A stretch of 16,721 nt of DNA from a virus (taxonomy: Duplodnaviria > Heunggongvirae > Uroviricota > Caudoviricetes), in IMG/VR virus record IMGVR_UViG_2617270976_000017, positions 1-16,721 of that record; one strand, written 5' to 3'. A model generated the notes under the pieces. The model saw nothing but the letters and a program-made list of their open reading frames with translations, ran no database searches and was not told the DNA's origin. Positions within the stretch are counted from its first letter, which is position 1, and the number at the start of each line of letters is the position of its first letter. A program made the translations under genes and the position numbers. This document shows, one piece after another, positions 1-10,186 of this stretch.

Positions 1-378
1 CCTGCTGACCATTGTCTGCATGATGTTCAGGATATGAGTACGATTAATCATCCCCGGGCTGACCTGAGCAAAGGGCAGTACGGCTGTGTCGGACAGGGCT
101 TACATATTGCCAAAAAACTGCTTCCGTATATCCCTAATAACGCGGGGATCCTGCTGGTACCATGCTGTCGTGGTGGTTCGGCATTCACCCAGGGCACGGA
201 GGGGACATTCAGCGAGTCCACGGGGGCCAGTCAGGATTCGGCTCGCTGGGGAGTGGGTAAGCCGTTATATCAGGATCTGCTTTTCCGCACGAAGGCAGCA
301 TTGCAGAAAAACCCGAAAAACGTTTTGCTGGCGATATGCTGGATGCAGGGGGAATTCGATATGACGAATGCCAGTTAG
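1..378 (+). CDS. 3' portion of a hypothetical prophage protein; reading frame is open from base 1, so probably 5'-truncated by the window edge
   Basis: Frame 1 has no stop from position 1 to TAG at 376-378; the ORF track starts it at ATG 34 only because that is the first Met. GC-rich like the phage backbone. No family recognised with confidence (a weak impression of an SGNH/esterase-like 'W-x-QGE-x-D' block, not verifiable here). Confidence 0.4.
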   Translation, partial: PADHCLHDVQDMSTINHPRADLSKGQYGCVGQGLHIAKKLLPYIPNNAGILLVPCCRGGSAFTQGTEGTFSESTGASQDSARWGVGKPLYQDLLFRTKAALQKNPKNVLLAICWMQGEFDMTNAS

Positions 379-587
379 TGCTGGTGAGCCTTGACGGGCT
401 GATCTCCTATGCAGCAAAGGTTCATCTCAAAGTAAGACGAACGCTATGACAAACCAAGATTCTATAGACCTATCTGATCTTCGTGGAATGGTCAGTTTTC
501 CAGACAAAAGGTAATCACCATAGTCGTATGGCTATGAATCTTGTTGCTGCAGATAAGCATTTTGTGATTGAAGTGGTCAAATCTCTC

Positions 588-644
588 AAATGCAGTAAAA
601 TGCAGTGCGCTATAATTCAATAACGGAGGGAGTAAGGAGAAGTC
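588..644 (+). promoter_or_regulatory. putative promoter/RBS region for the 645..1265 gene: tandem AAATGCAGT x2 (588-606), TATAAT (611-616), strong Shine-Dalgarno GGAGGG/AAGGAGA (625-640)
   Basis: Perfect -10 hexamer 29 nt upstream of ATG 645; double SD motif 5-15 nt upstream of the ATG; no convincing -35, so promoter call is weak. Confidence 0.3.
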
Positions 645-1265
645 ATGAAAGATCAAGATGTTAGGTTCGCGGTGCATCATAAGCTTTTGAAAGAATCGCA
701 TTTAGATCCAGACTGCCTTGTGGTCGATGAATTTTCCATATCCCTTGGCGCCAGTAGAGCAGACATTGCTGTAATAAATGGTGTTATACACGGGTACGAG
801 CTCAAAAGTGAATATGACTCTTTGGAGCGTTTGCCTCTTCAAATCAAGCATTATTCTTCTGTAATGGACAAGGTTACTCTTGTCGTAGCTGAGAAACACC
901 TTGAGGGAGCATTAAAGTTAATCCCAGGTTGGTGGGGCGTTAAAACGGTTTCTGTTGGGCCAAAAGGCGCCATTCTTATAAAGCACATGCGTGGAGAAAA
1001 GCTTAATCGAAACCATGACACATTGATGCTCGCTCAATTGCTTTGGAAAGATGAATGTATCGACGTACTTGAACGATGGGGCTATTCCAAAGGAATCAAA
1101 AGCAAGCCCCGATTTGAGTTATGGAATATTATTGCGGAAAATATTCCAATAGCGAATCTCAGGCTTGAAGTCAGAACAGCCTTAAAGAAACGCGTAGGCT
1201 GGAAAGTTAAGGCTTGGCAGGCTGAGTCTGCGCCAACCAATAAAGCTGTCTCACGACTAACGTAA
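645..1265 (+). CDS. hypothetical 206-aa protein with a PD-(D/E)xK-like nuclease signature (..RADIAVINGVIHGYELKSE..); accessory (moron) gene
   Basis: Long ORF with strong RBS; AT-richer than the flanking phage structural genes; Asp followed ~12 residues later by E-L-K in hydrophobic beta-strand-like context, as in restriction-endonuclease-fold proteins. Family assignment not possible without HMM search. Confidence 0.65.
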   Translation: MKDQDVRFAVHHKLLKESHLDPDCLVVDEFSISLGASRADIAVINGVIHGYELKSEYDSLERLPLQIKHYSSVMDKVTLVVAEKHLEGALKLIPGWWGVKTVSVGPKGAILIKHMRGEKLNRNHDTLMLAQLLWKDECIDVLERWGYSKGIKSKPRFELWNIIAENIPIANLRLEVRTALKKRVGWKVKAWQAESAPTNKAVSRLT

Positions 1266-2274
1266 TATGGTGCGTATGTGCAACTTTACGCCATTCTTTA
1301 GAGCCGCCAGATTTGTTAGCGCCTAATGATCTTTGGTAAATGTAATCATCCCCCCAACTAAATTTGGAGCCAAAGACTTGATACTCTGGCGAACTAACAA
1401 GGGTAGTACATAAGTTTTTAGTTTGGCCCCATCCATTTCCTTTAACTGCGGTACCTTTTACAAAGATCCATGAGGTATCGTTCGAATATCTCACTGAGAC
1501 ATACTGAGACATGAAGCGTGGGTCTACGCTCGTAATGGTAGAGCTAGCGGTGGGATAATCACTAAAACTTGGCGTTCTTCCATTGCTAAAATTCTGTACT
1601 ACGTACATCCAAAGATCGTATTCATGGCGCGGAATATGATGAACTTGATGTTGCGGTATCCCTGCCTGTGATGCCGGGTATGCGGTTGAAGATAAAATCA
1701 AGTTTCTCCACGGAGCTTGGCCTGATAATGTGTTGACCATGCTTAATGCTTGTTGTTTTAAACTATCAGTTGCGTTTTGAATATCTCCAAAATCAATGAT
1801 TACATCAATTAAACTAGGATGAATATTTAAGTGGTTAACCAGACTTGTGAATTGGTGCCATGTCTGGGGGGTGATAGATATAGCGAGCCCATTGATTAAG
1901 TTGCGTTGAACAGCATGTATATAGTTTGTTGAATATGCGGGAGAAACAACAGGGATAATTTCCTTACCATTTACTCTAGCATCTTGGATACACATATCTA
2001 GAGGATGATGGCGGCTCGAACCATGTTTATCTAAATATTTAACATCCAGCAAAACAGGACGATTGGCTTTCCAGGATGCCGCAAGGTTAATACCGAAGTC
2101 AGATAAGTAAGAACTCAAACTCTTCTTGTAGCATTCGTTTTCATAATCCCAGTCTATGTCTGGAATGGTAATGATCGGAGTAAAACCAGAGAGCGTAGTT
2201 TGATCTAAAAGCATCAGAGATTCATATTCAGCAGGCTTCCATTTCAGCTGTGGATAATATTGATGTTGACTCAT
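1207..2274 (-). CDS. hypothetical 355-aa protein, convergent to and overlapping the 3' end of 645..1265; accessory gene
   Basis: Long minus-strand ORF; ATG at 2274-2272 preceded by a perfect AAGGAG (complement of 2280-2285) with 5-nt spacing; same AT-rich composition as its neighbour. No recognisable lambda homolog. Confidence 0.65.
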   Translation of the reverse strand: MSQHQYYPQLKWKPAEYESLMLLDQTTLSGFTPIITIPDIDWDYENECYKKSLSSYLSDFGINLAASWKANRPVLLDVKYLDKHGSSRHHPLDMCIQDARVNGKEIIPVVSPAYSTNYIHAVQRNLINGLAISITPQTWHQFTSLVNHLNIHPSLIDVIIDFGDIQNATDSLKQQALSMVNTLSGQAPWRNLILSSTAYPASQAGIPQHQVHHIPRHEYDLWMYVVQNFSNGRTPSFSDYPTASSTITSVDPRFMSQYVSVRYSNDTSWIFVKGTAVKGNGWGQTKNLCTTLVSSPEYQVFGSKFSWGDDYIYQRSLGANKSGGSKEWRKVAHTHHITLVVRQLYWLAQTQPAKP

Positions 2275-2470
2275 TAAAACTCCTTAAAATCTTTACTTAT
2301 CCTAAGTATAGTGTTATGGCGTAACGCCAATTGTTTTTATACACTTGAAAACATTGGGAAAAGTTGAGCTATATCTAAATTTACAAAATTGGATGTTATA
2401 GAAATCGAGGTTTCAACTAGGCATGGAACTGCAAAATTTTTAATGCCTGCACGCGAAAGTCGTTGGCGGG

Positions 2471-2509: not shown

Positions 2510-2684
2510 CGCGGTTTTTCACTATTTATGAAAATTTTTCAGGGAAAATCGTGTCGGTACTTCTCGAATATAACTTTTTGTTTTTTTTAATATTGCATTC
2601 ATAAATGTCCGACATGAAAGTGTCCGAAAATGCCTTTTTTTGGCGTTTTCATGTCGGGCCTTGTATTTGATAATGAGTTGTTCT
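2510..2684 (+). promoter_or_regulatory. cosB-like terminase binding region with three oppositely oriented core elements (TGTCGG at 2552-2557, CCGACA at 2609-2614, TGTCGG at 2652-2657) and an AT-rich segment between the first two
   Basis: Position between cosN and the Nu1 start, +/-/+ orientation and spacing (about +54, +111, +154 from cosN) mirror the lambda R3-I1-R2-R1 layout, but the element sequence differs from lambda's. Confidence 0.55.
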
Positions 2685-3233
2685 ATGAAGGTTAATAAAA
2701 AGAGGCTTGCCGAAATTTTTAACGTGGACCCGCGGACGATTGAACGCTGGCAGTCTCAGGGGCTCCCTTGCGTCTCCAAAGGCAGTAAGGGCATTGAATC
2801 TGTATTTGATACTGCCATGGCAATTCAGTGGTATGCGCAGAGGGAAACTGATATCGAAAACGAAAAGCTCCGCAAAGAACTGGCCGATTTGCGTGCGGCA
2901 GCGGAGTCAGATTTACAACCCGGCACCATTGACTATGAACGCTACCGGCTCACAAAAGCGCAGGCAGATGCGCAGGAACTGAAAAATGCCCGTGAAGACG
3001 GAGTGGTGCTGGAAACTGAACTATTTACCTTCATTCTGCAACGTGTGGCACAGGAGATTTCGGGGATACTTGTGCGTGTGCCGTTGACATTACAGCGTAA
3101 ATATCCGGACATTTCACCATCACACCTTGATGTGGTGAAAACTGAAATCGCGAAAGCCTCCAATGTTGCAGCTAAGGCCGGTGAAAACGTGGGCGGGTGG
3201 ATCGATGATTTCAGACGCACAGAAGGCAGCTAA
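2685..3233 (+). CDS. nu1: terminase small subunit (lambda Nu1 homolog)
   Basis: [12 protein letters not shown]...[12 protein letters not shown]...[49 protein letters not shown] aligns along its length with lambda gpNu1 as recalled. Start taken at ATG 2685 (the ORF track's 2640 uses an upstream TTG). Confidence 0.9.
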
Positions 3234-5133
3234 TGCAGCCGGTGCGATAGCTACAGGGCTTTTATCTCTCATTATTCCTGTTCCACTGACGACAGTTCAG
3301 TGGGCCAATAAACATTATTACCTTCCTAAAGAGTCGTCTTATACCCCGGGGCGGTGGGAAACACTGCCGTTTCAGGTTGGCATCATGAACTGTATGGGCA
3401 ACGATTTGATTCGCACTGTTAACCTGATTAAATCTGCCCGTGTTGGTTATACAAAGATGTTGCTGGGAGTGGAGGCTTATTTTATTGAGCATAAATCACG
3501 CAACAGCCTTCTTTTTCAGCCCACGGACTCAGCTGCTGAAGATTTTATGAAATCTCATGTTGAGCCAACGATAAGGGATGTTCCTGCATTGCTGGAGCTG
3601 GCTCCATGGTTCGGAAGAAAACACCGCGATAATACGCTCACCCTGAAGCGTTTTTCCTCCGGTGTGGGTTTCTGGTGTCTGGGGGGAGCGGCAGCAAAAA
3701 ACTACCGTGAAAAATCCGTGGATGTGGTTTGTTATGACGAGCTTTCCTCGTTCGAACCGGATGTTGAAAAAGAGGGTTCGCCAACCCTGCTGGGGGATAA
3801 ACGTATTGAGGGCTCTGTATGGCCAAAATCCATTCGCGGCTCGACGCCTAAAATCAAAGGCTCCTGCCAGATCGAAAAAGCCGCTAACGAGTCGGCACAT
3901 TTCATGCGTTTTTATGTGCCCTGTCCGCACTGTGGGGAGGAGCAGTATCTGAAATTTGGCGATGATGCCTCGCCTTTCGGTCTTAAGTGGGAGAAGAATA
4001 AGCCAGAAAGTGTTTTCTACCTTTGTGAGCATCATGGCTGTGTGATCCATCAGTCTGAGCTTGACCAGAGTAACGGGCGGTGGATCTGTGAAAACACGGG
4101 CATGTGGACTCGTGACGGTCTGACATTTTTCAGCGCCGCGGATAATGAAATTCCGCCGCCGCGCTCCATCACATTCCATATCTGGACGGCGTACAGTCCG
4201 TTCACCACCTGGGTACAGATTGTCTATGACTGGCTGGATGCACTGAAAGATCCCAACGGCCTGAAAACCTTTGTGAACACCACGCTGGGCGAGACCTGGG
4301 AAGAGGCCGTGGGCGAAAAACTCGATCACCAGGTGCTGATGGATAAGGTTGTGCGTTACACGGCTGCGGTGCCTTCCCGGGTGGTTTATCTGACGGCGGG
4401 CATTGACTCGCAGCGAAACCGTTTTGAGATGTATGTCTGGGGATGGGCTCCGGGAGAGGAAGCCTTTCTGGTGGATAAAATCATCATTATGGGGCGTCCC
4501 GATGAGGAAGAGACGCTGTTACGTGTGGATGTGGCGATCAACAAAAAATACCGCCATGCAGACGGAACCGAAATGACCATTTCCCGTGTCTGCTGGGACA
4601 CCGGGGGGATCGATGGCGAAATTGTCTATCAGAGGTCAAAAAAACACGGTGTTTTCCGGGTGCTGCCGGTAAAAGGTGCATCTGTTTATGGCAAGCCGGT
4701 GATCACCATGCCAAAAACCCGCAATCAGCGGGGCGTGTATCTGTGCGAAGTGGGGACGGACACCGCAAAAGAAATTCTCTATGCCCGTATGAAAGCCGAT
4801 CCCACGCCTGCGGATGAAGCCACGTCGTATGCCATCCGTTTTCCTGATGATCCGGAGATTTTTTCGCAGACAGAGGCGCAGCAACTGGTGGCGGAAGAGC
4901 TTGTGGAGAAGTGGGAAAAAGGAAAGATGCGTCTGCTGTGGGATAACAAAAAGCGGCGTAACGAAGCGCTGGACTGCCTGGTGTATGCCTACGCGGCATT
5001 ACGTGTGTCCGTGCAACGCTGGCAGCTTGATCTGGCTGTACTGGCAAAATCCCGGGAAGAAGAGACGACCCGGCCAACCCTTAAAGAACTGGCAGCGAAG
5101 CTGTCCGGAGGAGTGAATGGTTACAGTCGCTGA
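3205..5133 (+). CDS. A: terminase large subunit (lambda gpA homolog)
   Basis: Strong colinear similarity to lambda gpA ([24 protein letters not shown]..., [33 protein letters not shown]..., [10 protein letters not shown]...). Start placed at ATG 3205 (MISDAQ...), overlapping the Nu1 3' end as in lambda. Confidence 0.95.
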
Positions 5134-5323
5134 ACTGCAGGCGCTGCGTCAGGCGCGCCTTGATTTATTAACCGGTAAACGGGTGGTGTCTGTCCAGAAA
5201 GATGGTCGCAGAATTGAATATACGGCAGCTTCTCTGGATGAGCTTAACCGGGCGATCAATGATGCGGAGTCGGTACTGGGGACAACCCGCCGTCGCCGTC
5301 GTCCGCTGGGAGTGAGGTTATGA
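5117..5323 (+). CDS. W: head-tail joining / head completion protein (lambda gpW homolog, 68 aa)
   Basis: 68-aa ORF with LLTGKRVVSVQKDGRRIEYTA core matching lambda gpW; overlaps A stop and B start (ATGA) as in lambda. Confidence 0.9.
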   Translation: MVTVAELQALRQARLDLLTGKRVVSVQKDGRRIEYTAASLDELNRAINDAESVLGTTRRRRRPLGVRL

Positions 5324-7029
5324 AACGAACGCCTGTCCTGATTGATGTGAACGGCGTTCCGCTTCGGGAGAGCCTCAGCTACAACGGTGGCGGTGCAGGA
5401 TTTGGCGGGCAAATGGCAGAGTGGTTGCCACCCTCGCAGAGTGCCGATGCGGCCCTGCTGCCCGCGTTGCGTCTGGGGAATGCCCGTGCAGATGATCTGG
5501 TGCGCAATAACGGAATAGCGGCCAATGCGGTGGCCCTGCATAAGGATCACATTGTCGGGCATATGTTTCTGATTAGCTACCGTCCGAACTGGCGCTGGCT
5601 GGGGATGCGGGAGACCGCGGCAAAAAGTTTTGTCGATGAGGTGGAGGCGGCCTGGTCAGAATACGCAGAAGGGATGTTTGGTGAGATCGACGTGGAAGGG
5701 AAACGCACGTTTACGGAATTTATCCGTGAAGGTGTGTGCGTTCATGCGTTTAACGGCGAAATCTTTGTGCAGCCGGTCTGGGATACGGAGAGTACGCAAC
5801 TGTTTCGTACGCGTTTTAAAGCCGTGAGTCCGAAACGGGTGGACACGCCAGGACACGGTATCGGGAACCGTTTTCTGCGGGCCGGTGTGGAGGTTGATCG
5901 ATATGGCCGTGCCGTTGCGTACCATATCTGTGAGGATGATTTTCCTCGCTCCGGGAGTGGACGATGGGAACGGATCCCGCGTGAACTACCCACCGGGCGT
6001 CCGGCCATGCTGCATATTTTCGAGCCGGTGGAGGACGGGCAGACCCGTGGAGCCAATCAGTTTTACAGCGTTATGGAACGGCTGAAGATGCTCGATTCCC
6101 TGCAGGCAACACAGCTTCAGTCGGCCATAGTGAAGGCGATGTATGCAGCGACGATTGAAAGTGACCTTGATACCGAAAAGGCCTTTGAATATATCGCCGG
6201 TGCGCCGCAGGGGCAGAAGGATAATCCGCTTATTAATATTCTGGATAAGTTCTCCACCTGGTATGACACGAATAGCGTGACGCTGGGCGGTGTCAAAATT
6301 CCGCACCTTTTCCCCGGTGATGATCTGAAACTTCAGACCGCGCAGGATTCAGACAATGGATTTTCGGCGCTTGAACAGGCGCTGCTGCGGTATATCGCCG
6401 CCGGTCTTGGCGTTTCCTACGAACAGTTGTCCCGTGATTACTCGAAGGTCAGTTACTCAAGTGCCCGCGCATCCGCCAATGAGTCGTGGCGCTATTTTAT
6501 GGGGCGGCGAAAATTTATTGCGTCCCGGCTGGCCACGCAGATGTTTTCCTGCTGGCTGGAAGAGGCACTTCTTCGGGGGATTATTCGTCCGCCACGGGCA
6601 CGGTTTGATTTTTATCAGGCGCGATCAGCCTGGTCACGGGCTGAGTGGATTGGAGCCGGAAGAATGGCCATTGACGGGCTCAAGGAGGTTCAGGAATCAG
6701 TGATGCGCATTGAGGCCGGACTGAGCACGTATGAGAAAGAGCTGGCGCTGATGGGCGAGGATTATCAGGACATTTTCCGCCAGCAGGTCAGGGAATCTGC
6801 AGAGCGGGAAAAAGCCGGACTCTCACGTCCGGTGTGGATAGCGCAGGCGTATCAGCAGCAGATAGCGGAGAGTCGCAGGCCGGAAGAGGAGACAGTCGCG
6901 GATGAATATGACCAGCCGACGTCCGATATCACGAAGGATAAATGCAGCAAATGCCTGAGCGGCTGTAAGTTTCGCAATAACGTCGGCAACTTTGGCGGCT
7001 TCCTTTCCATTAACAAACTTTCGCAGTAA
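5320..7029 (+). CDS. B: portal protein (lambda gpB homolog) whose last codons are replaced by an in-frame fusion to the 3' end of tail gene L
   Basis: Residues 1-~525 colinear with lambda gpB (GGGAGFGGQ..., FEPVEDGQTRGANQFYSVME..., LRYIAAGLGVSYEQLSR...); the final 44 residues VADEYDQPTSDITKDKCSKCLSGCKFRNNVGNFGGFLSINKLSQ match the C-terminus of lambda gpL. Confidence 0.85.
   Translation: MKRTPVLIDVNGVPLRESLSYNGGGAGFGGQMAEWLPPSQSADAALLPALRLGNARADDLVRNNGIAANAVALHKDHIVGHMFLISYRPNWRWLGMRETAAKSFVDEVEAAWSEYAEGMFGEIDVEGKRTFTEFIREGVCVHAFNGEIFVQPVWDTESTQLFRTRFKAVSPKRVDTPGHGIGNRFLRAGVEVDRYGRAVAYHICEDDFPRSGSGRWERIPRELPTGRPAMLHIFEPVEDGQTRGANQFYSVMERLKMLDSLQATQLQSAIVKAMYAATIESDLDTEKAFEYIAGAPQGQKDNPLINILDKFSTWYDTNSVTLGGVKIPHLFPGDDLKLQTAQDSDNGFSALEQALLRYIAAGLGVSYEQLSRDYSKVSYSSARASANESWRYFMGRRKFIASRLATQMFSCWLEEALLRGIIRPPRARFDFYQARSAWSRAEWIGAGRMAIDGLKEVQESVMRIEAGLSTYEKELALMGEDYQDIFRQQVRESAEREKAGLSRPVWIAQAYQQQIAESRRPEEETVADEYDQPTSDITKDKCSKCLSGCKFRNNVGNFGGFLSINKLSQ
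6895..7029 (+). pseudogene. L: 3' remnant of tail tip gene L (last ~44 codons) fused to B
   Basis: C-terminal gpL sequence including the Cys-rich CSKCLSGC block; immediately followed by K as in lambda gene order L-K-I-J. Confidence 0.7.
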
Positions 7030-7033
7030 TCCC

Positions 7034-7777
7034 ATGACAGAGACAGAATCAGCGATTCTGGCGCACGCCCGGCGATGTGCGCCAGCGGAGTCGTGCGGCT
7101 TCGTGGTGAGAGCGCCGGAGGGGGAAAGATATTTCCCCGGCGTGAATATCTCCGGTGAGCCGGAGGATTATTTCCGTATGTCGCCGGAAGACTGGCTGCA
7201 GGCAGAAATGCAGGGTGAGATTGTGGCGCTGGTCCACAGCCACCACGGTGGTCTGCCCTGGCTGAGTGAGGCCGACCGGCGGCTGCAGGTGCAGAGTGAT
7301 TTGCCGTGGTGGCTGGTCTGCCGGGGGACGATTCACAAGTTCCGCTGTGTGCCGCATCTCACCGGGCGGCGCTTTGAGCACGGGGTGACGGACTGTTACA
7401 CGCTGTTCCGGGATGCTTATCATCTGGCGGGGATTGAGATGCCGGATTTTCATCGCGGGGATGACTGGTGGCGTCACGGTCAGAATCTCTATCTGGATAA
7501 TCTGGAAGCCACAGGGCTGTATCAGGTGCCGTTGTCATCAGCACAACCGGGCGATGTGCTGCTGTGCTGCTTTGGTTCATCGGTGCCGAATCATGCCGCC
7601 ATTTACTGTGGTGACGGCGAGCTGCTGCACCATATTCCTGAACAACTGAGCAAACGAGAGAGGTATACCGACAAATGGCAGCGACGCACACACTCCCTCT
7701 GGCGTCACCAGGCATGGCACGCATCTGCCTTTACGGGGATTTACAACGATTTGGCCGCCGCATCGATCTGCGTGTGA
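7034..7777 (+). CDS. K: tail assembly protein K (lambda gpK homolog)
   Basis: MTETESAILAHARRCAPAESCGFVV...HSHH... ORF; overlaps I by ~100 nt as K and I do in lambda. An internal Met at 7178 corresponds to the shorter classical K annotation. Confidence 0.85.
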   Translation: MTETESAILAHARRCAPAESCGFVVRAPEGERYFPGVNISGEPEDYFRMSPEDWLQAEMQGEIVALVHSHHGGLPWLSEADRRLQVQSDLPWWLVCRGTIHKFRCVPHLTGRRFEHGVTDCYTLFRDAYHLAGIEMPDFHRGDDWWRHGQNLYLDNLEATGLYQVPLSSAQPGDVLLCCFGSSVPNHAAIYCGDGELLHHIPEQLSKRERYTDKWQRRTHSLWRHQAWHASAFTGIYNDLAAASICV

Positions 7778-8316
7778 AAACGGGGGCCGAAGCCATCCGG
7801 GCGCTGGCCATGCAGATCCCGGCGTTTCGTCAGAAGCTGAGCGACGGCTGGTATCAGGTACGCATTGCCGGGCGTGATACAGGTGAAACGGAATTATCAG
7901 CCCGTCTTAATGAACCGCTGGCAAATGGTGCTGTGATCCATATCGTGCCGCGTCTGGCAGGAGCCAAAAGTGGCGGTGTGTTTCAGGCTGTGCTGGGGGC
8001 GGCTGTTATGGCGGTTGCTATATGGATGCCGGGGGTAGGAATTATGGCGAGTAATCTGCTGTTTTCTCTCGGTGCCAGTATGACGCTTGGCGGTGTTGCA
8101 CAGATGCTGGCCCCTAAACCCAAAACCCCCCGCACACAGACAACGGATAACGGCAAACAGAACACCTATTTCTCTTCACTGGATAACATGGTTGCCCAGG
8201 GCAATGTTCTGCCTGTTCTGTACGGTGAAATGCGCGTGGGGTCACGTGTGGCATCTCAGGAGATCAGCACGGCAGATGAAGGGGATGGTGGTCAGGTTGT
8301 GGTAATTGGGCGGTAA
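7675..8316 (+). CDS. I: tail assembly protein I (lambda gpI homolog)
   Basis: MAATHTLPLASPGMARICLYGDLQRFGRRIDLRVKTGAEAIRALA... and C-terminal ...NVLPVLYGEMRVGSRV.SQEISTADEGDGGQVVVIGR match lambda gpI. Confidence 0.9.
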   Translation: MAATHTLPLASPGMARICLYGDLQRFGRRIDLRVKTGAEAIRALAMQIPAFRQKLSDGWYQVRIAGRDTGETELSARLNEPLANGAVIHIVPRLAGAKSGGVFQAVLGAAVMAVAIWMPGVGIMASNLLFSLGASMTLGGVAQMLAPKPKTPRTQTTDNGKQNTYFSSLDNMVAQGNVLPVLYGEMRVGSRVASQEISTADEGDGGQVVVIGR

Positions 8317-8388
8317 TATTATTTACTCATGTTCTAACTGATTTAATATTTATATCGAACACTGATAATTATTCTATTGGTTAGCTAT

Positions 8389-8727
8389 ATGAACAAAACG
8401 ATTTTATTCTGCACGATTATTGCCTTAACAGGATGTAAATCTTTGGATTACGTAAAATCCGGAAAACCTGTAATGGAAGGTAATTCATTAAAAAATATTG
8501 ATGAATTGTCAGGCTGCATATCCAGACAATGGGCTGGTAATGGAACACCTATAACATCCCTTCCTATTGAGAATGGGGTAAGCCTTTTAGTTCCACAGGC
8601 TATGGGGGGATATGATGTTGTGCTTGATATCAAAAAAGCAGGAAATGGCAGTAGTTTTACTCTTTATGAACGTGTACCAGCATTAACGCCAAAAATTTTT
8701 GCTGATAGTGTTAATGCATGTAAATAA
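8389..8727 (+). CDS. small predicted lipoprotein (signal peptide MNKTILFCTIIALTG-C, lipobox LTGC); accessory gene inserted between I and J
   Basis: ORF with N-terminal hydrophobic segment ending in L-T-G-C; markedly AT-rich relative to flanking I and J; followed by a hairpin terminator. Start placed at ATG 8389; weak RBS. Confidence 0.6.
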   Translation: MNKTILFCTIIALTGCKSLDYVKSGKPVMEGNSLKNIDELSGCISRQWAGNGTPITSLPIENGVSLLVPQAMGGYDVVLDIKKAGNGSSFTLYERVPALTPKIFADSVNACK

Positions 8728-8750
8728 TAGTTAATCCTGCTGTAACTCAT

Positions 8751-8780
8751 GAGCCGCCTTTTGGGCGGCTTTGTTGTTTA
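8751..8780 (+). terminator. rho-independent terminator-like hairpin (GAGCCGCC-TTTT-GGGCGGCT) plus T-rich tail
   Basis: 8-bp GC-rich stem (one mismatch) with 4-nt loop followed by TTGTTGTTT, directly after the lipoprotein stop. Confidence 0.55.
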
Positions 8781-8793
8781 TGGAGTGTGAGGA

Positions 8794-10186
8794 ATGGGTA
8801 AAGGAAGCAGTAAGGGGCATACCCCGCGCGAAGCGAAGGACAACCTGAAATCCACGCAATTACTGAGTGTGATCGATGCCATCAGCGAAGGGCCGATTGA
8901 AGGTCCGGTGGATGGATTAAAAAGCGTGCTGCTGAACAGTACACCGGTGCTGGACAGTGAGGGGAATACCAACATCTCCGGTGTCACGGTGGTGTTCCGG
9001 GCAGGTGAGCAGGAGCAGACACCGCCGGAGGGATTTGAATCCTCCGGTTCCGAGACGGTGCTGGGTACGGAAGTGAAATACGACACGCCGATCACCCGGA
9101 CCATCACGTCTGCAAACATCGACCGTCTGCGCTTTACCTTCGGTGTGCAGGCTCTGGTGGAAACCACCTCAAAGGGGGACCGGAATCCGTCGGAAGTCCG
9201 CCTGCTGGTTCAGATACAACGTAACGGTGGCTGGGTGACGGAAAAAGACATCACCATTAAGGGCAAAACCACCTCGCAGTATCTGGCCTCGGTGGTGGTG
9301 GGTAACCTGCCGCCGCGCCCGTTTAATATCCGGATGCGCAGAATGACGCCGGACAGCACCACAGACCAGCTGCAGAACAAAACGCTCTGGTCGTCATACA
9401 CCGAAATCATCGATGTGAAACAGTGCTATCGGTGCCGGTATTGAGAATACGCCAGCAGGAATGCAGAGTCAGGTGCTGCTGGCGGCAGACAGGATTGCGA
9501 TGATTAATCCTGCGAATGGCAACACAAAGCCGATGTTTGTTGGTCAGGGCGATCAGATATTTATGAATGAAGTGTTCCTGAAATATCTGACGGCTCCCAC
9601 CATTACCAGCGGCGGTAATCCTCCGGCATTTTCCCTGACACCGGACGGGCGGCTGACGGCGAAAAATGCCGATATCAGCGGTAACGTGAATGCGAACTCC
9701 GGGACGCTCAACAACGTCACGATTAACGAGAACTGTCGGGTTCTGGGAAAATTGTCCGCGAACCAGATTGAAGGCGATCTCGTTAAAACAGTGGGCAAAG
9801 CTTTCCCCCGGGACTCCCGTGCACCGGAGCGGTGGCCATCAGGAACCATTACCGTCAGGGTTTATGACGATCAGCCGTTTGACCGGCAGATTGTTATTCC
9901 GGCGGTGGCATTCAGCGGCGCTAAACATGAGAAAGAGCATACTGATATTTACTCCTCATGCCGTCTGATAGTGCGGAAAAACGGTGCTGAAATTTATAAC
10001 CGTACCGCGCTGGATAATACGCTGATTTACAGTGGTGTTATTGATATGCCTGCCGGTCACGGTCACATGACACTGGAGTTTTCGGTGTCAGCATGGCTGG
10101 TAAATAACTGGTATCCCACAGCAAGTATCAGCGATTTGCTGGTTGTGGTGATGAAGAAAGCCACTGCAGGCATCACGATTAGCTGA
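8794..10186 (+). pseudogene. J: tail tip/host specificity gene J, disrupted: N-terminal ~210 codons (8794..9444) joined out of frame to the C-terminal ~240 codons (9461..10186); central ~2 kb missing
   Basis: 8794..9444 matches lambda gpJ residues 1-~212 nearly residue for residue and then stops (..VKQCYRCRY*); 9461..10186 in another frame matches the gpJ C-terminal region (..[32 protein letters not shown]..) with a divergent extreme C-terminus. Confidence 0.8.

What the first reader, a model, noticed from the sequence alone, without database searches (positions are those of the whole stretch)
1207..1265. Convergent genes overlap by 59 bp at their 3' ends
The + gene stops at 1263-1265 and the - gene stops at 1207-1209, so the last ~19 codons of each are encoded on opposite strands of the same DNA. 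Defence and toxin/antitoxin partners are usually co-directional; a tail-to-tail overlap implies independent promoters and possible mutual transcriptional interference or antisense regulation. It could couple the expression of the two proteins inversely.
Basis: seen in the sequence. Interest (0 to 1): 0.4.

Follow-up and report, generated by a model that had tools for sequence, protein, structure and literature searches.

The report
Tail-to-tail overlapping phage-defence gene pair
Two real prophage genes, a nuclease-like protein and its "Beta" partner related to the phage P4 gop-beta-cII defence system, face each other and share 59 bases; facing and interlocking is the normal layout for this pair across bacteria, but most of the 59 bases here come from one recent loss of a stop codon.

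Summary
The + ORF 645-1265 (206 aa, sce7726/P4-cII family, PD-(D/E)XK nuclease fold) and the - ORF 1207-2274 (355 aa, Beta_protein family, TIM barrel) are both real genes and overlap by 59 bp. RefSeq annotates them the same way.

They form a low-GC cassette between the lysis genes and cos of a phage-21-like prophage. It is a gop-less relative of P4 gop-beta-cII and PD-lambda-2.

Tail-to-tail orientation is the rule for this pair. About 155 of roughly 163 pairs surveyed, spanning many phyla and phages, have interpenetrating 3' ends (11-138 bp). In 69 of 79 pairs, two conserved codons lie exactly 28 nt apart. Selection switches from one reading frame to the other at a single point, so the overlapping tails are unconstrained.

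In this window, 11 bp are shared with the closest relatives. The other 48 bp come from one A-to-G change at 1216 (TAG to TGG). It is synonymous in beta and adds a non-conserved tail, predicted disordered, to the nuclease.

I found no terminator or conserved RNA structure in the overlap. Antisense coupling is therefore physically possible but untested. It is also not required, because the validated P4 system has a 27-bp gap with a terminator.

The parts
378..2460 (.). Low-GC cargo cassette (moron) between the prophage lysis region and cos/terminase
   Evidence: GC is 40.6% here against 52.8% for 2640-9000. Homology to phage 21 and other lambdoid phages resumes at about 2460. In other E. coli genomes the cassette sits between the lysis protein and the terminase small subunit.
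574..601 (+). Candidate sigma-70 promoter for the nuclease-like gene (TGGTCA-16-TAAAAT)
   Evidence: Consensus scan only, 9 of 12 matches. This is weak evidence.
645..1265 (+). sce7726 / P4-cII family gene (206 aa), PD-(D/E)XK nuclease fold plus a helical C-terminal domain
1200..1202 (+). Invariant Trp186 codon of the nuclease; marks the end of its conserved core
   Evidence: W186 is invariant. In the typical family layout, codon-position variability switches frame at this codon.
1207..1265 (.). The 59-bp overlap. It codes nuclease residues 188-206 plus stop on the + strand and beta residues 337-355 plus stop on the - strand.
1207..1209 (-). Beta stop codon (TAA), embedded in nuclease codons V188/K189 (GTT AAG)
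   Evidence: Read directly from the sequence. The position is the same in L008-L010.
1215..1217 (+). TGG (Trp191), the stop-loss site. The closest relatives have TAG here. G1216 is the third position of beta Ala353 (GCC against GCT), so the change is synonymous in beta.
   Evidence: DNA alignment with Klebsiella, Pantoea and Pectobacterium. Homolog C-termini.
1218..1265 (+). Lineage-specific read-through tail of the nuclease (residues 192-206 plus stop); non-conserved and predicted disordered
   Evidence: pLDDT is below 50 for residues 189-206. Most homologs cover only 91-92% of the query. Tails vary in length and sequence.
1207..2274 (-). Beta family gene (355 aa), TIM-barrel fold with a long C-terminal helix (residues 325-350)
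2317..2329 (+). Hairpin TGGCGTAACGCCA followed by a T-run, lying between beta's start and cos. It may be a + strand terminator for read-through from the nuclease gene, or an operator.
   Evidence: Pattern scan only. Not followed up.

Best explanation
**What the genes are**
- The two ORFs are the conserved core of a mobile two-gene module. One is a TIM-barrel 'Beta' protein, related to P4 beta and PD-lambda-2C. The other is a PD-(D/E)XK nuclease-like protein of the sce7726 / P4-cII family.
- Here the module is cargo in a phage-21-like prophage, next to cos, with no gop and no PD-lambda-2 A or B partner.
- It is most likely an anti-phage or exclusion module in which the nuclease is the effector and Beta its partner or regulator. 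This is inferred from family membership and fold and was not tested.

**Why they overlap**
- Tail-to-tail orientation with the 3' ends pushed into each other is the inherited layout of this pair.
- In the typical layout the two conserved cores abut with no spacer. The nuclease Trp codon and the beta His codon are exactly 28 nt apart.
- Each ORF then runs on as an unconstrained tail until a stop happens to occur inside the partner's coding sequence.
- With no neutral spacer, indels and rearrangements are selected against, so the arrangement is frozen and the two genes are inherited together.

**What happened in this window**
- In the enterobacterial subclade that includes the window, a 39-nt expansion pulled the cores apart and left an 11-bp overlap.
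- In the E. coli lineage a single A-to-G change at 1216 turned the nuclease stop TAG into TGG and added 16 residues. It is silent in beta. This gives the 59 bp.
- The extension is most likely neutral.

**Consequences**
- Each gene must have its own promoter.
- No terminator lies in or near the overlap, so the two mRNAs are expected to be complementary at their 3' ends.
- Transcriptional interference or RNase III processing is therefore possible. The evidence does not show that the overlap was selected for that purpose.
For: **Gene identity**
- Family hits.
- Folds.

**Convergent interlocking is the family rule**
- Genome survey: 80 of 85 pairs from about ten phyla overlap by 11-138 bp (mode 44 bp), and 78 of 85 are in the same phase.
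- Viral contigs: 77 of 78 pairs are convergent and 75 of 78 overlap.
- Individual phages also overlap: Rac-SA53 by 41 bp, Gordonia phages Powerball and DumpsterDude by 89 bp, Mycofy1 by 107 bp.
- The W-to-H spacing is exactly 28 nt in 69 of 79 pairs, 50 of them non-redundant at under 85% DNA identity.

**Single-frame constraint with a sharp hand-over**
- Left of the Trp codon, the most variable site is nuclease codon position 3.
- From +3 onward, the most variable site is beta position 3, which is nuclease position 2. Entropy there is 1.65, against 0.62 at the neighbouring position.

**Stop-loss**
- TAG in Klebsiella, Pantoea and Pectobacterium against TGG in the window; synonymous in beta.
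- Close homologs are 190 aa. Independent extensions of +2, +12 and +16 residues exist.
- The tail is predicted disordered.
- The extension length is unremarkable, P about 0.23.

**No terminator or structure**
-.

**The overlap is dispensable**
- P4 has a 27-bp gap with an annotated bidirectional terminator and is an active defence against lambda and P1 (PMC9122126).
- Other P4-type loci have gaps of 3-77 bp.

**The module is a core**
- gop lies upstream of beta in P4.
- DUF6932 plus a PD-Lambda-2_B-like gene lie upstream of beta in 36 of 80 loci.
- Nothing lies upstream of beta here.
Against: - No expression, toxicity or defence data exist for this cassette, so its function is inferred by homology only. 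The role of cII in P4 defence has not been dissected, and Beta's biochemical activity is unknown (generic TIM-barrel matches only).
- Convergent orientation persists even in clades where the overlap has been resolved (P4-type). A frozen-accident account does not fully explain this, which leaves room for selection on convergent transcription itself.
- The loci surveyed are the best 80 hits per collection, not a random or phylogenetically corrected sample.
- The promoter for beta was not identified.
- Disorder of the 16-residue tail is a prediction, and short disordered tails can be functional.
Confidence: 0.72

Rival explanations
1. The convergent, spacer-less junction is a selected regulatory device. 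Because the two mRNAs necessarily share complementary 3' ends and the polymerases collide, expression of Beta (and its upstream operon, where present) and of the nuclease is reciprocally limited, by transcriptional interference and/or RNase III cleavage of the RNA duplex. This would set a safe ratio in uninfected cells and let the balance flip on infection or prophage induction.
For: - Convergent orientation is kept in about 160 loci across phyla and in the P4-type clade even without overlap.
- There is no intrinsic terminator or hairpin in or near the overlap, so read-through into the partner is expected.
- The nuclease always has its own promoter, while beta is often the last gene of a 2- or 3-gene operon.
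- In this prophage the nuclease gene runs with late transcription and beta runs against it, so induction would favour the nuclease.
- From my own knowledge: type I toxin-antitoxin pairs such as TxpA/RatA and BsrG/SR4, and 'excludon' loci, use 3'-overlapping convergent transcripts.
Against: - Overlap length is very variable (11-138 bp), and the overlap is absent in P4, which still defends (PMC9122126).
- No conserved RNA structure or extra nucleotide conservation appears beyond what one coding frame explains.
- The window-specific 48 bp arose from one silent-in-beta substitution and is not shared by close relatives.
- There are no transcript data.
Confidence: 0.2
2. The overlap is an annotation or ORF-calling artefact: one of the two ORFs, or its 3' end, is not really translated.
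For: [quoted passage not shown]
- The nuclease tail here is exactly such an extension.
Against: - Both ORFs have strong family hits over nearly their full length, strong ribosome-binding sites and confident fold models.
- There is no in-frame stop before 1263 in the + frame or before 1207 in the - frame, so ribosomes must read through the shared bases.
- Even with the ancestral TAG, an 11-bp overlap remains.
- The same sequence is present in 126 E. coli genomes, so it is not a sequencing error.
Confidence: 0.03
3. The 16-residue extension of the nuclease is an adaptive gain specific to the E. coli prophage lineage, for example a degron or a Beta-binding tail. On this reading the longer overlap is a by-product of selection on the protein.
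For: - The extended form is the only one seen in the E. coli cassette: a cluster of 203 member sequences, 126 genomes and 27 viral contigs.
- Independent extensions also occur in Cronobacter (+12) and other lineages (+2).
Against: - The E. coli copies are about 99.9% identical, so their uniformity reflects recent common descent and says little about selection.
- The tail sequence is dictated by beta's conserved C-terminal helix on the other strand.
- It is predicted disordered.
- The tails of different lineages share no sequence.
Confidence: 0.05

Closest known systems
Phage P4 gop-beta-cII locus (Ghisotti et al. 1990, as cited in PMC9122126; shown there to protect against lambda and P1)
   Same: - Both have a Beta_protein family gene and a cII/sce7726 family gene (PF26915 Phage_P4_cII) placed tail to tail, next to a cos site on a mobile element.
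- Both are non-essential cargo.
   Different: - The window has no gop. There are only 365 bp between beta's start and the terminase gene, and they hold no - strand ORF.
- Identity is only about 20-27%.
- P4 cII is longer (264 aa) and carries an extra C-terminal region.
- P4 has a 27-bp gap with an annotated bidirectional terminator in place of an overlap.
PD-lambda-2 (Vassallo et al. 2022, PMC9519451)
   Same: - Its third gene, PD-lambda-2C, is a Beta_protein (PF14350) required for defence.
- The window's beta hits the PADLOC PD-Lambda-2_C models at E 4e-32.
   Different: - The HigB-like A and Xre-peptidase B genes are absent here.
- PD-lambda-2 as defined has no nuclease gene. However, 36 of 80 related loci combine a PD-Lambda-2_B-like gene, beta and a convergent sce7726.
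Convergent gene overlaps created by 3'-end extension after stop-codon mutation (group iii of Palleja et al. 2008, PMC2478687)
   Same: 48 of the 59 bp arise in exactly this way, by a TAG-to-TGG point mutation.
   Different: The residual overlap, and the overlap in the wider family, are conserved across phyla. Palleja et al. found apparently real long convergent overlaps mostly conserved only in very close species.
Type I toxin-antitoxin loci and 'excludons' with 3'-overlapping convergent transcripts (TxpA/RatA, BsrG/SR4; named from my own knowledge, not tested here)
   Same: Convergent transcription units whose RNAs would pair at their 3' ends; a possible toxin-like effector paired with a partner.
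   Different: Here both partners are protein-coding. No antisense regulation has been shown, and no RNA structure or conserved non-coding element was found.

Membership tests
Gop-beta-cII anti-phage system (P4 type) | Beta_protein (PF14350) family gene | tested here: met
   Pfam E 8e-56 over profile positions 1-342 of 342. PADLOC 'beta' E 3.5e-10.
Gop-beta-cII anti-phage system (P4 type) | cII / sce7726 family gene (PF26915) adjacent and convergent to beta | tested here: met
   NCBIfam sce7726_fam E 2e-54. PADLOC 'cll' E 4e-31. tblastn to P4 cII at 27% identity, E 2e-11. Convergent in the window.
Gop-beta-cII anti-phage system (P4 type) | gop gene immediately upstream of beta, on the same strand | tested here: not met
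   No - strand ORF of 40 aa or more lies between 2275 and the terminase gene at 2640, and the region contains cos. P4 gop hits the PADLOC gop model. I did not run the gop model on window ORFs; absence is inferred from the lack of any ORF.
Gop-beta-cII anti-phage system (P4 type) | Protection against phages; gop toxicity neutralised by beta | not testable with these tools
   Experimental property (PMC9122126).
PD-lambda-2 | Gene C: Beta_protein family | tested here: met
   PADLOC PD-Lambda-2_C, E 4e-32 and 2e-25, both partial matches over roughly residues 132-349.
PD-lambda-2 | Gene A (HigB-like) and gene B (Xre HTH plus M78 peptidase) upstream of C | tested here: not met
   No ORFs lie upstream of beta in the window. 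Such genes are present in 36 of 80 related loci.
Conserved convergent overlapping gene pair (both frames functional in the shared bases) | Overlap conserved in orthologous pairs from distant taxa | tested here: met
   80 of 85 genome pairs and 75 of 78 viral pairs overlap, 78 of 85 in the same phase.
Conserved convergent overlapping gene pair (both frames functional in the shared bases) | Purifying selection on both reading frames within the shared bases | tested here: not met
   The codon-position entropy pattern follows the nuclease frame up to the Trp codon and the beta frame after it. Joint constraint covers only about 2 codons.
3'-overlap antisense regulation (type I TA / excludon-like) | Overlapping complementary transcripts that alter each other's level | not testable with these tools
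   Only indirect evidence: no terminator or structure in the overlap and no Rfam match.

The most novel reading that the evidence does not exclude
The spacer-less, phase-locked tail-to-tail junction of Beta and the cII/sce7726 nuclease is a selected control element, not a frozen accident. Obligatory 3' RNA complementarity and polymerase collision would keep the nuclease effector silent while the Beta operon is transcribed, and release it when infection or prophage induction changes transcription. On this reading the convergent nuclease is also the overlooked effector of gop-beta-cII and PD-lambda-2-type defence systems.
Probability: 0.15. Interest if true: 0.7.

Novelty: new variant of a known kind. 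Interest (0 to 1): 0.38.

Why it matters
- For this window, the finding is mostly explained. It is a known pair of gene families in their usual orientation, plus an ordinary stop-loss extension.
- The comparative result is more useful. The Beta / cII-sce7726 pair is a widely distributed, tightly interlocked two-gene core. Different front-end modules attach to it: gop in P4, and DUF6932 plus an Xre-M78 peptidase in PD-lambda-2-like loci. The window has none.
- This points to the PD-(D/E)XK protein as a candidate effector that current system definitions omit for PD-lambda-2 and leave unexplained for gop-beta-cII.
- It also exposes an annotation trap. At least two phage GenBank records do not annotate the nuclease gene at all. 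The overlap may have made gene callers drop it.
- The cassette gives a natural test of whether 3' overlap matters, because alleles with 11-bp and 59-bp overlaps differ by one base that is silent in beta.

Tried and rejected
1. Conserved RNA structure or bidirectional terminator in the overlap. RNAalifold on 50 non-redundant loci gave no structure on either strand, and the mean single-sequence z was -0.15. The window itself gives z 0.08 and -0.45. The pattern scan found no terminator between 1100 and 1400. Rfam found nothing in 380-2700.
2. The only structured stretch is on the - strand downstream of beta's stop (1070-1206, z -2.7). It is AT-rich with no U-tract, so I did not count it as a terminator.
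3. Sequence relatives with solved structures: none for either protein at E up to 1.
5. Locus searches with the diverse alignments (A1 in genome contigs, A2 in viral contigs) failed for lack of a conserved stretch.
6. Literature searches for sce7726, PF14350 or 'beta family protein' returned only incidental mentions or unrelated TGF-beta and importin papers. I found no description of the conserved overlap.
7. A third conserved gene in the window: none. The recurrent third and fourth genes elsewhere are PD-Lambda-2_B-like and DUF6932.
8. Whether the original E. coli PD-lambda-2 locus has a convergent sce7726 could not be checked, because the ECOR42 contig is not in the searchable collections. 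The published clone leaves only 396 bp beyond gene C.
9. No beta promoter was found by consensus scan or by eye.

Full report
**1. The observation**

- The window has a + ORF at 645..1265 (206 aa, stop TAA 1263-1265) and a - ORF at 1207..2274 (355 aa, stop at 1207-1209). They share 1207-1265, 59 bp.
- Both are real genes.
  - The + product matches NCBIfam sce7726_fam (E 2e-54, residues 1-183) and the PADLOC 'cll' model.
  - The - product matches Pfam Beta_protein PF14350 (E 8e-56, residues 6-342) and the PADLOC PD-Lambda-2_C and 'beta' models.
  - Each ATG is preceded by AAGGAG.
- RefSeq/PGAP annotates the same two CDS with the same overlap in other E. coli genomes.
- 126 complete E. coli genomes carry the cassette at about 99.9% identity.

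**2. Context**

- The pair forms a 40.6% GC cassette in a 52.8% GC lambdoid prophage.
- It lies between the lysis genes and the phage-21-type cos and small terminase gene.
- In this window a 3,026-bp deletion with 6-bp microhomology has removed the lysis genes.

**3. What the proteins are**

- AlphaFold models are confident.
- Residues 189-206 of sce7726, the part encoded in the overlap, have pLDDT below 50.
- Neither protein has a sequence relative of solved structure.

**4. Relation to known systems**

- Phage P4 carries gop (247-648, +), beta (651-1718, +) and cII (1746-2540, -). Beta and cII are therefore also tail to tail there, separated by 27 bp that hold an annotated bidirectional terminator.
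- Rousset et al. showed that gop-beta-cII protects against lambda and P1, and cite Ghisotti 1990 for gop toxicity relieved by beta (PMC9122126).
- Vassallo et al. found that PD-lambda-2C, 'related to a P4 phage antitoxin', is needed for defence (PMC9519451).
- The window has neither gop nor PD-lambda-2 A or B. Only 365 bp, including cos and no - strand ORF, separate beta's start from the terminase gene.

**5. Is the convergent overlap conserved?**

Yes, strikingly.

- Phage records:
  - Rac-SA53 overlaps by 41 bp.
  - Gordonia phages Powerball and DumpsterDude overlap by 89 bp.
  - Mycolicibacterium phage Mycofy1 overlaps by 107 bp.
- Genome survey (one genome per species; 393 relatives found, best 80 kept):
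  - The loci come from Gamma-, Alpha- and Betaproteobacteria, Desulfobacterota, Myxococcota, Firmicutes, Actinobacteria, Bacteroidota, Elusimicrobiota, Gastranaerophilales, Acidobacteriota and Planctomycetota.
  - HMM searches of all ORFs found a beta gene convergent and immediately downstream in all but one locus.
  - 80 of 85 pairs overlap by 11-138 bp (mode 44 bp), and 78 of 85 are in one phase.
- IMG/VR viral contigs: 77 of 78 pairs are convergent and 75 of 78 overlap. 27 of them show the E. coli 59-bp state.
- P4-type loci in Pseudomonas, Achromobacter and Aeromonas are convergent with gaps of 77, 3 and 27 bp.

**6. Anatomy of the junction**

- In 69 of 79 pairs the invariant Trp codon of the nuclease (W186) and the invariant His codon of beta (H336) are exactly 28 nt apart. 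50 of these pairs are non-redundant at under 85% DNA identity.
- Beta's stop usually lies 17 nt to the left of the Trp codon, inside the nuclease motif LKxRxxW. The nuclease stop lies anywhere from +5 to +140.
- Codon-position entropy shows a sharp hand-over.
  - Up to the Trp codon, the most variable position is nuclease position 3.
  - From +3 onward, the most variable position is beta position 3, which is nuclease position 2 (entropy 1.65 against 0.62).
  - Only the W-R and A-[S/T/N] codons are jointly fixed.
- So the two functional cores abut with no spacer. What overlaps are unconstrained tails: beta's last 5 or so residues, and the nuclease tail after WR.
- The Myxococcus phage Mx4 homolog has no beta neighbour and ends right after the WR motif.
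- With no neutral spacer, indels are selected against. That is sufficient to explain why the spacing and orientation are frozen.

**7. This window specifically**

- The window, Klebsiella, Pantoea and Pectobacterium share a 39-nt expansion, giving a W-to-H spacing of 67 nt (directly measured in the window, Pantoea and Pectobacterium; the Klebsiella measurement failed). Beta's TAA is then embedded in nuclease codons 188/189.
- In those relatives the nuclease stops at codon 191 (TAG) and the overlap is 11 bp.
- The window has TGG at that codon. The A-to-G change at 1216 is the third position of beta Ala353 (GCT to GCC, synonymous). It lets the nuclease read 16 more codons, to TAA at 1263-1265.
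- Close homologs are 190 aa. Independent extensions of +2, +12 and +16 residues exist, including two alleles within Cronobacter turicensis.
- The extension length is unremarkable. Stops occur at 31 of 356 codons in that frame, so P(16 or more) is about 0.23.

**8. Regulation**

- Convergent genes need separate promoters. A sigma-70-like site lies at 574-601 for the nuclease. I could not identify one for beta.
- No intrinsic terminator or significant structure lies in or next to the overlap in the window.
- No conserved structure appears across the family, and there is no Rfam match.
- If both promoters fire, the transcripts are therefore complementary at their 3' ends and the polymerases converge. 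That step is inferred.
- Selection for such coupling is not indicated, for four reasons.
  - Overlap length varies about twelve-fold.
  - Only one frame is constrained at each site.
  - The experimentally validated P4 system has no overlap and has a terminator.
  - The window's extra 48 bp are a recent change that is silent in beta.
- One point keeps the regulatory reading alive at about 0.2. Orientation stays convergent even in clades without overlap, and the nuclease always has its own promoter, whereas beta often ends a 2- or 3-gene operon.

**9. Module architecture**

- In 36 of 80 genome loci, two genes precede beta on the same strand. One is a PD-Lambda-2_B-like HTH-M78 peptidase (E 1e-85 to 1e-88). 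The other is a DUF6932/PDC-M63A protein.
- In P4 beta is preceded by gop. In the window nothing precedes it.
- The convergent Beta-plus-nuclease pair is therefore the conserved core.
- The published PD-lambda-2 clone leaves only 396 bp beyond gene C. An intact convergent nuclease, if present in ECOR42, was not part of the tested construct.

**10. Verdict**

- The cassette is a gop-less, two-gene variant of a known kind (gop-beta-cII / PD-lambda-2).
- Its tail-to-tail interlocking is the family's ancestral, frozen layout. The particular 59-bp length is an ordinary stop-loss extension.
- Functional antisense coupling remains possible but unproven.
- Interest is moderate to low for the window itself. 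It is somewhat higher for the family-level pattern and for the candidate effector role of the nuclease.

Noticed in passing
window 372-377 (and 1-378): This is the junction of a 3,026-bp deletion relative to other E. coli copies of the prophage, with 6-bp microhomology. The C-terminal two thirds of the SASA/NanS-like esterase, the holin, YdfR, the lysozyme and the Rz-like lysis gene are missing, so this prophage copy is lysis-defective (compared).
   Followed up: partly
window 2317-2329: A + strand hairpin TGGCGTAACGCCA followed by a T-run lies 43 nt beyond beta's ATG and just before cos. It could terminate + strand read-through from the nuclease gene after it has crossed all of beta in antisense, or it could be an operator in beta's leader.
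   Followed up: no
L022, L033, L066 and 33 other loci, about 1.1-3.4 kb to the right of the pair (for example L066 5642-6904 and 6904-7374, - strand): 36 of 80 genome loci carry DUF6932/PDC-M63A plus a PD-Lambda-2_B-like HTH-M78 peptidase upstream of beta, with the sce7726 nuclease convergent. PD-lambda-2-like operons therefore have an unlisted fourth gene. The published PD-lambda-2 clone leaves only 396 bp beyond gene C.
   Followed up: partly
L003 3001-3633 (Gordonia phage DumpsterDude MT024859) and L005 2989-3642 (Mycolicibacterium phage Mycofy1 PQ356897): These GenBank records do not annotate the sce7726/cII-family gene at all. DumpsterDude has a 72-aa reverse ORF called in its place. The overlap with beta may have made the gene callers drop it.
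   Followed up: yes
L012 1127-2752 (Xenorhabdus vietnamensis) and L011 (X. koppenhoeferi): Exceptions to the rule. In L012 both genes are trimmed at the junction, leaving a 39-bp gap, and beta ends early (...KVAQHTSLDHGR). In L011 no beta ORF was detected downstream of the nuclease gene. These look like decaying copies.
   Followed up: no
window 400-2460 in NZ_CP115370.1 (hit H1): One E. coli genome (strain CUVET17-972) has an IS2 insertion within the matched cassette region. The insertion point relative to the two genes was not examined.
   Followed up: no
window 1170-1265 compared with typical loci: The enterobacterial subclade has 39 extra nt between the nuclease Trp codon and the beta His codon (spacing 67 against 28 nt). 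Short repeats of the form AGGCTGG / AAGGCTTGG / CAGGCTGAG lie in this stretch, so a duplication that un-overlapped the two cores is conceivable. I did not test this.
   Followed up: no
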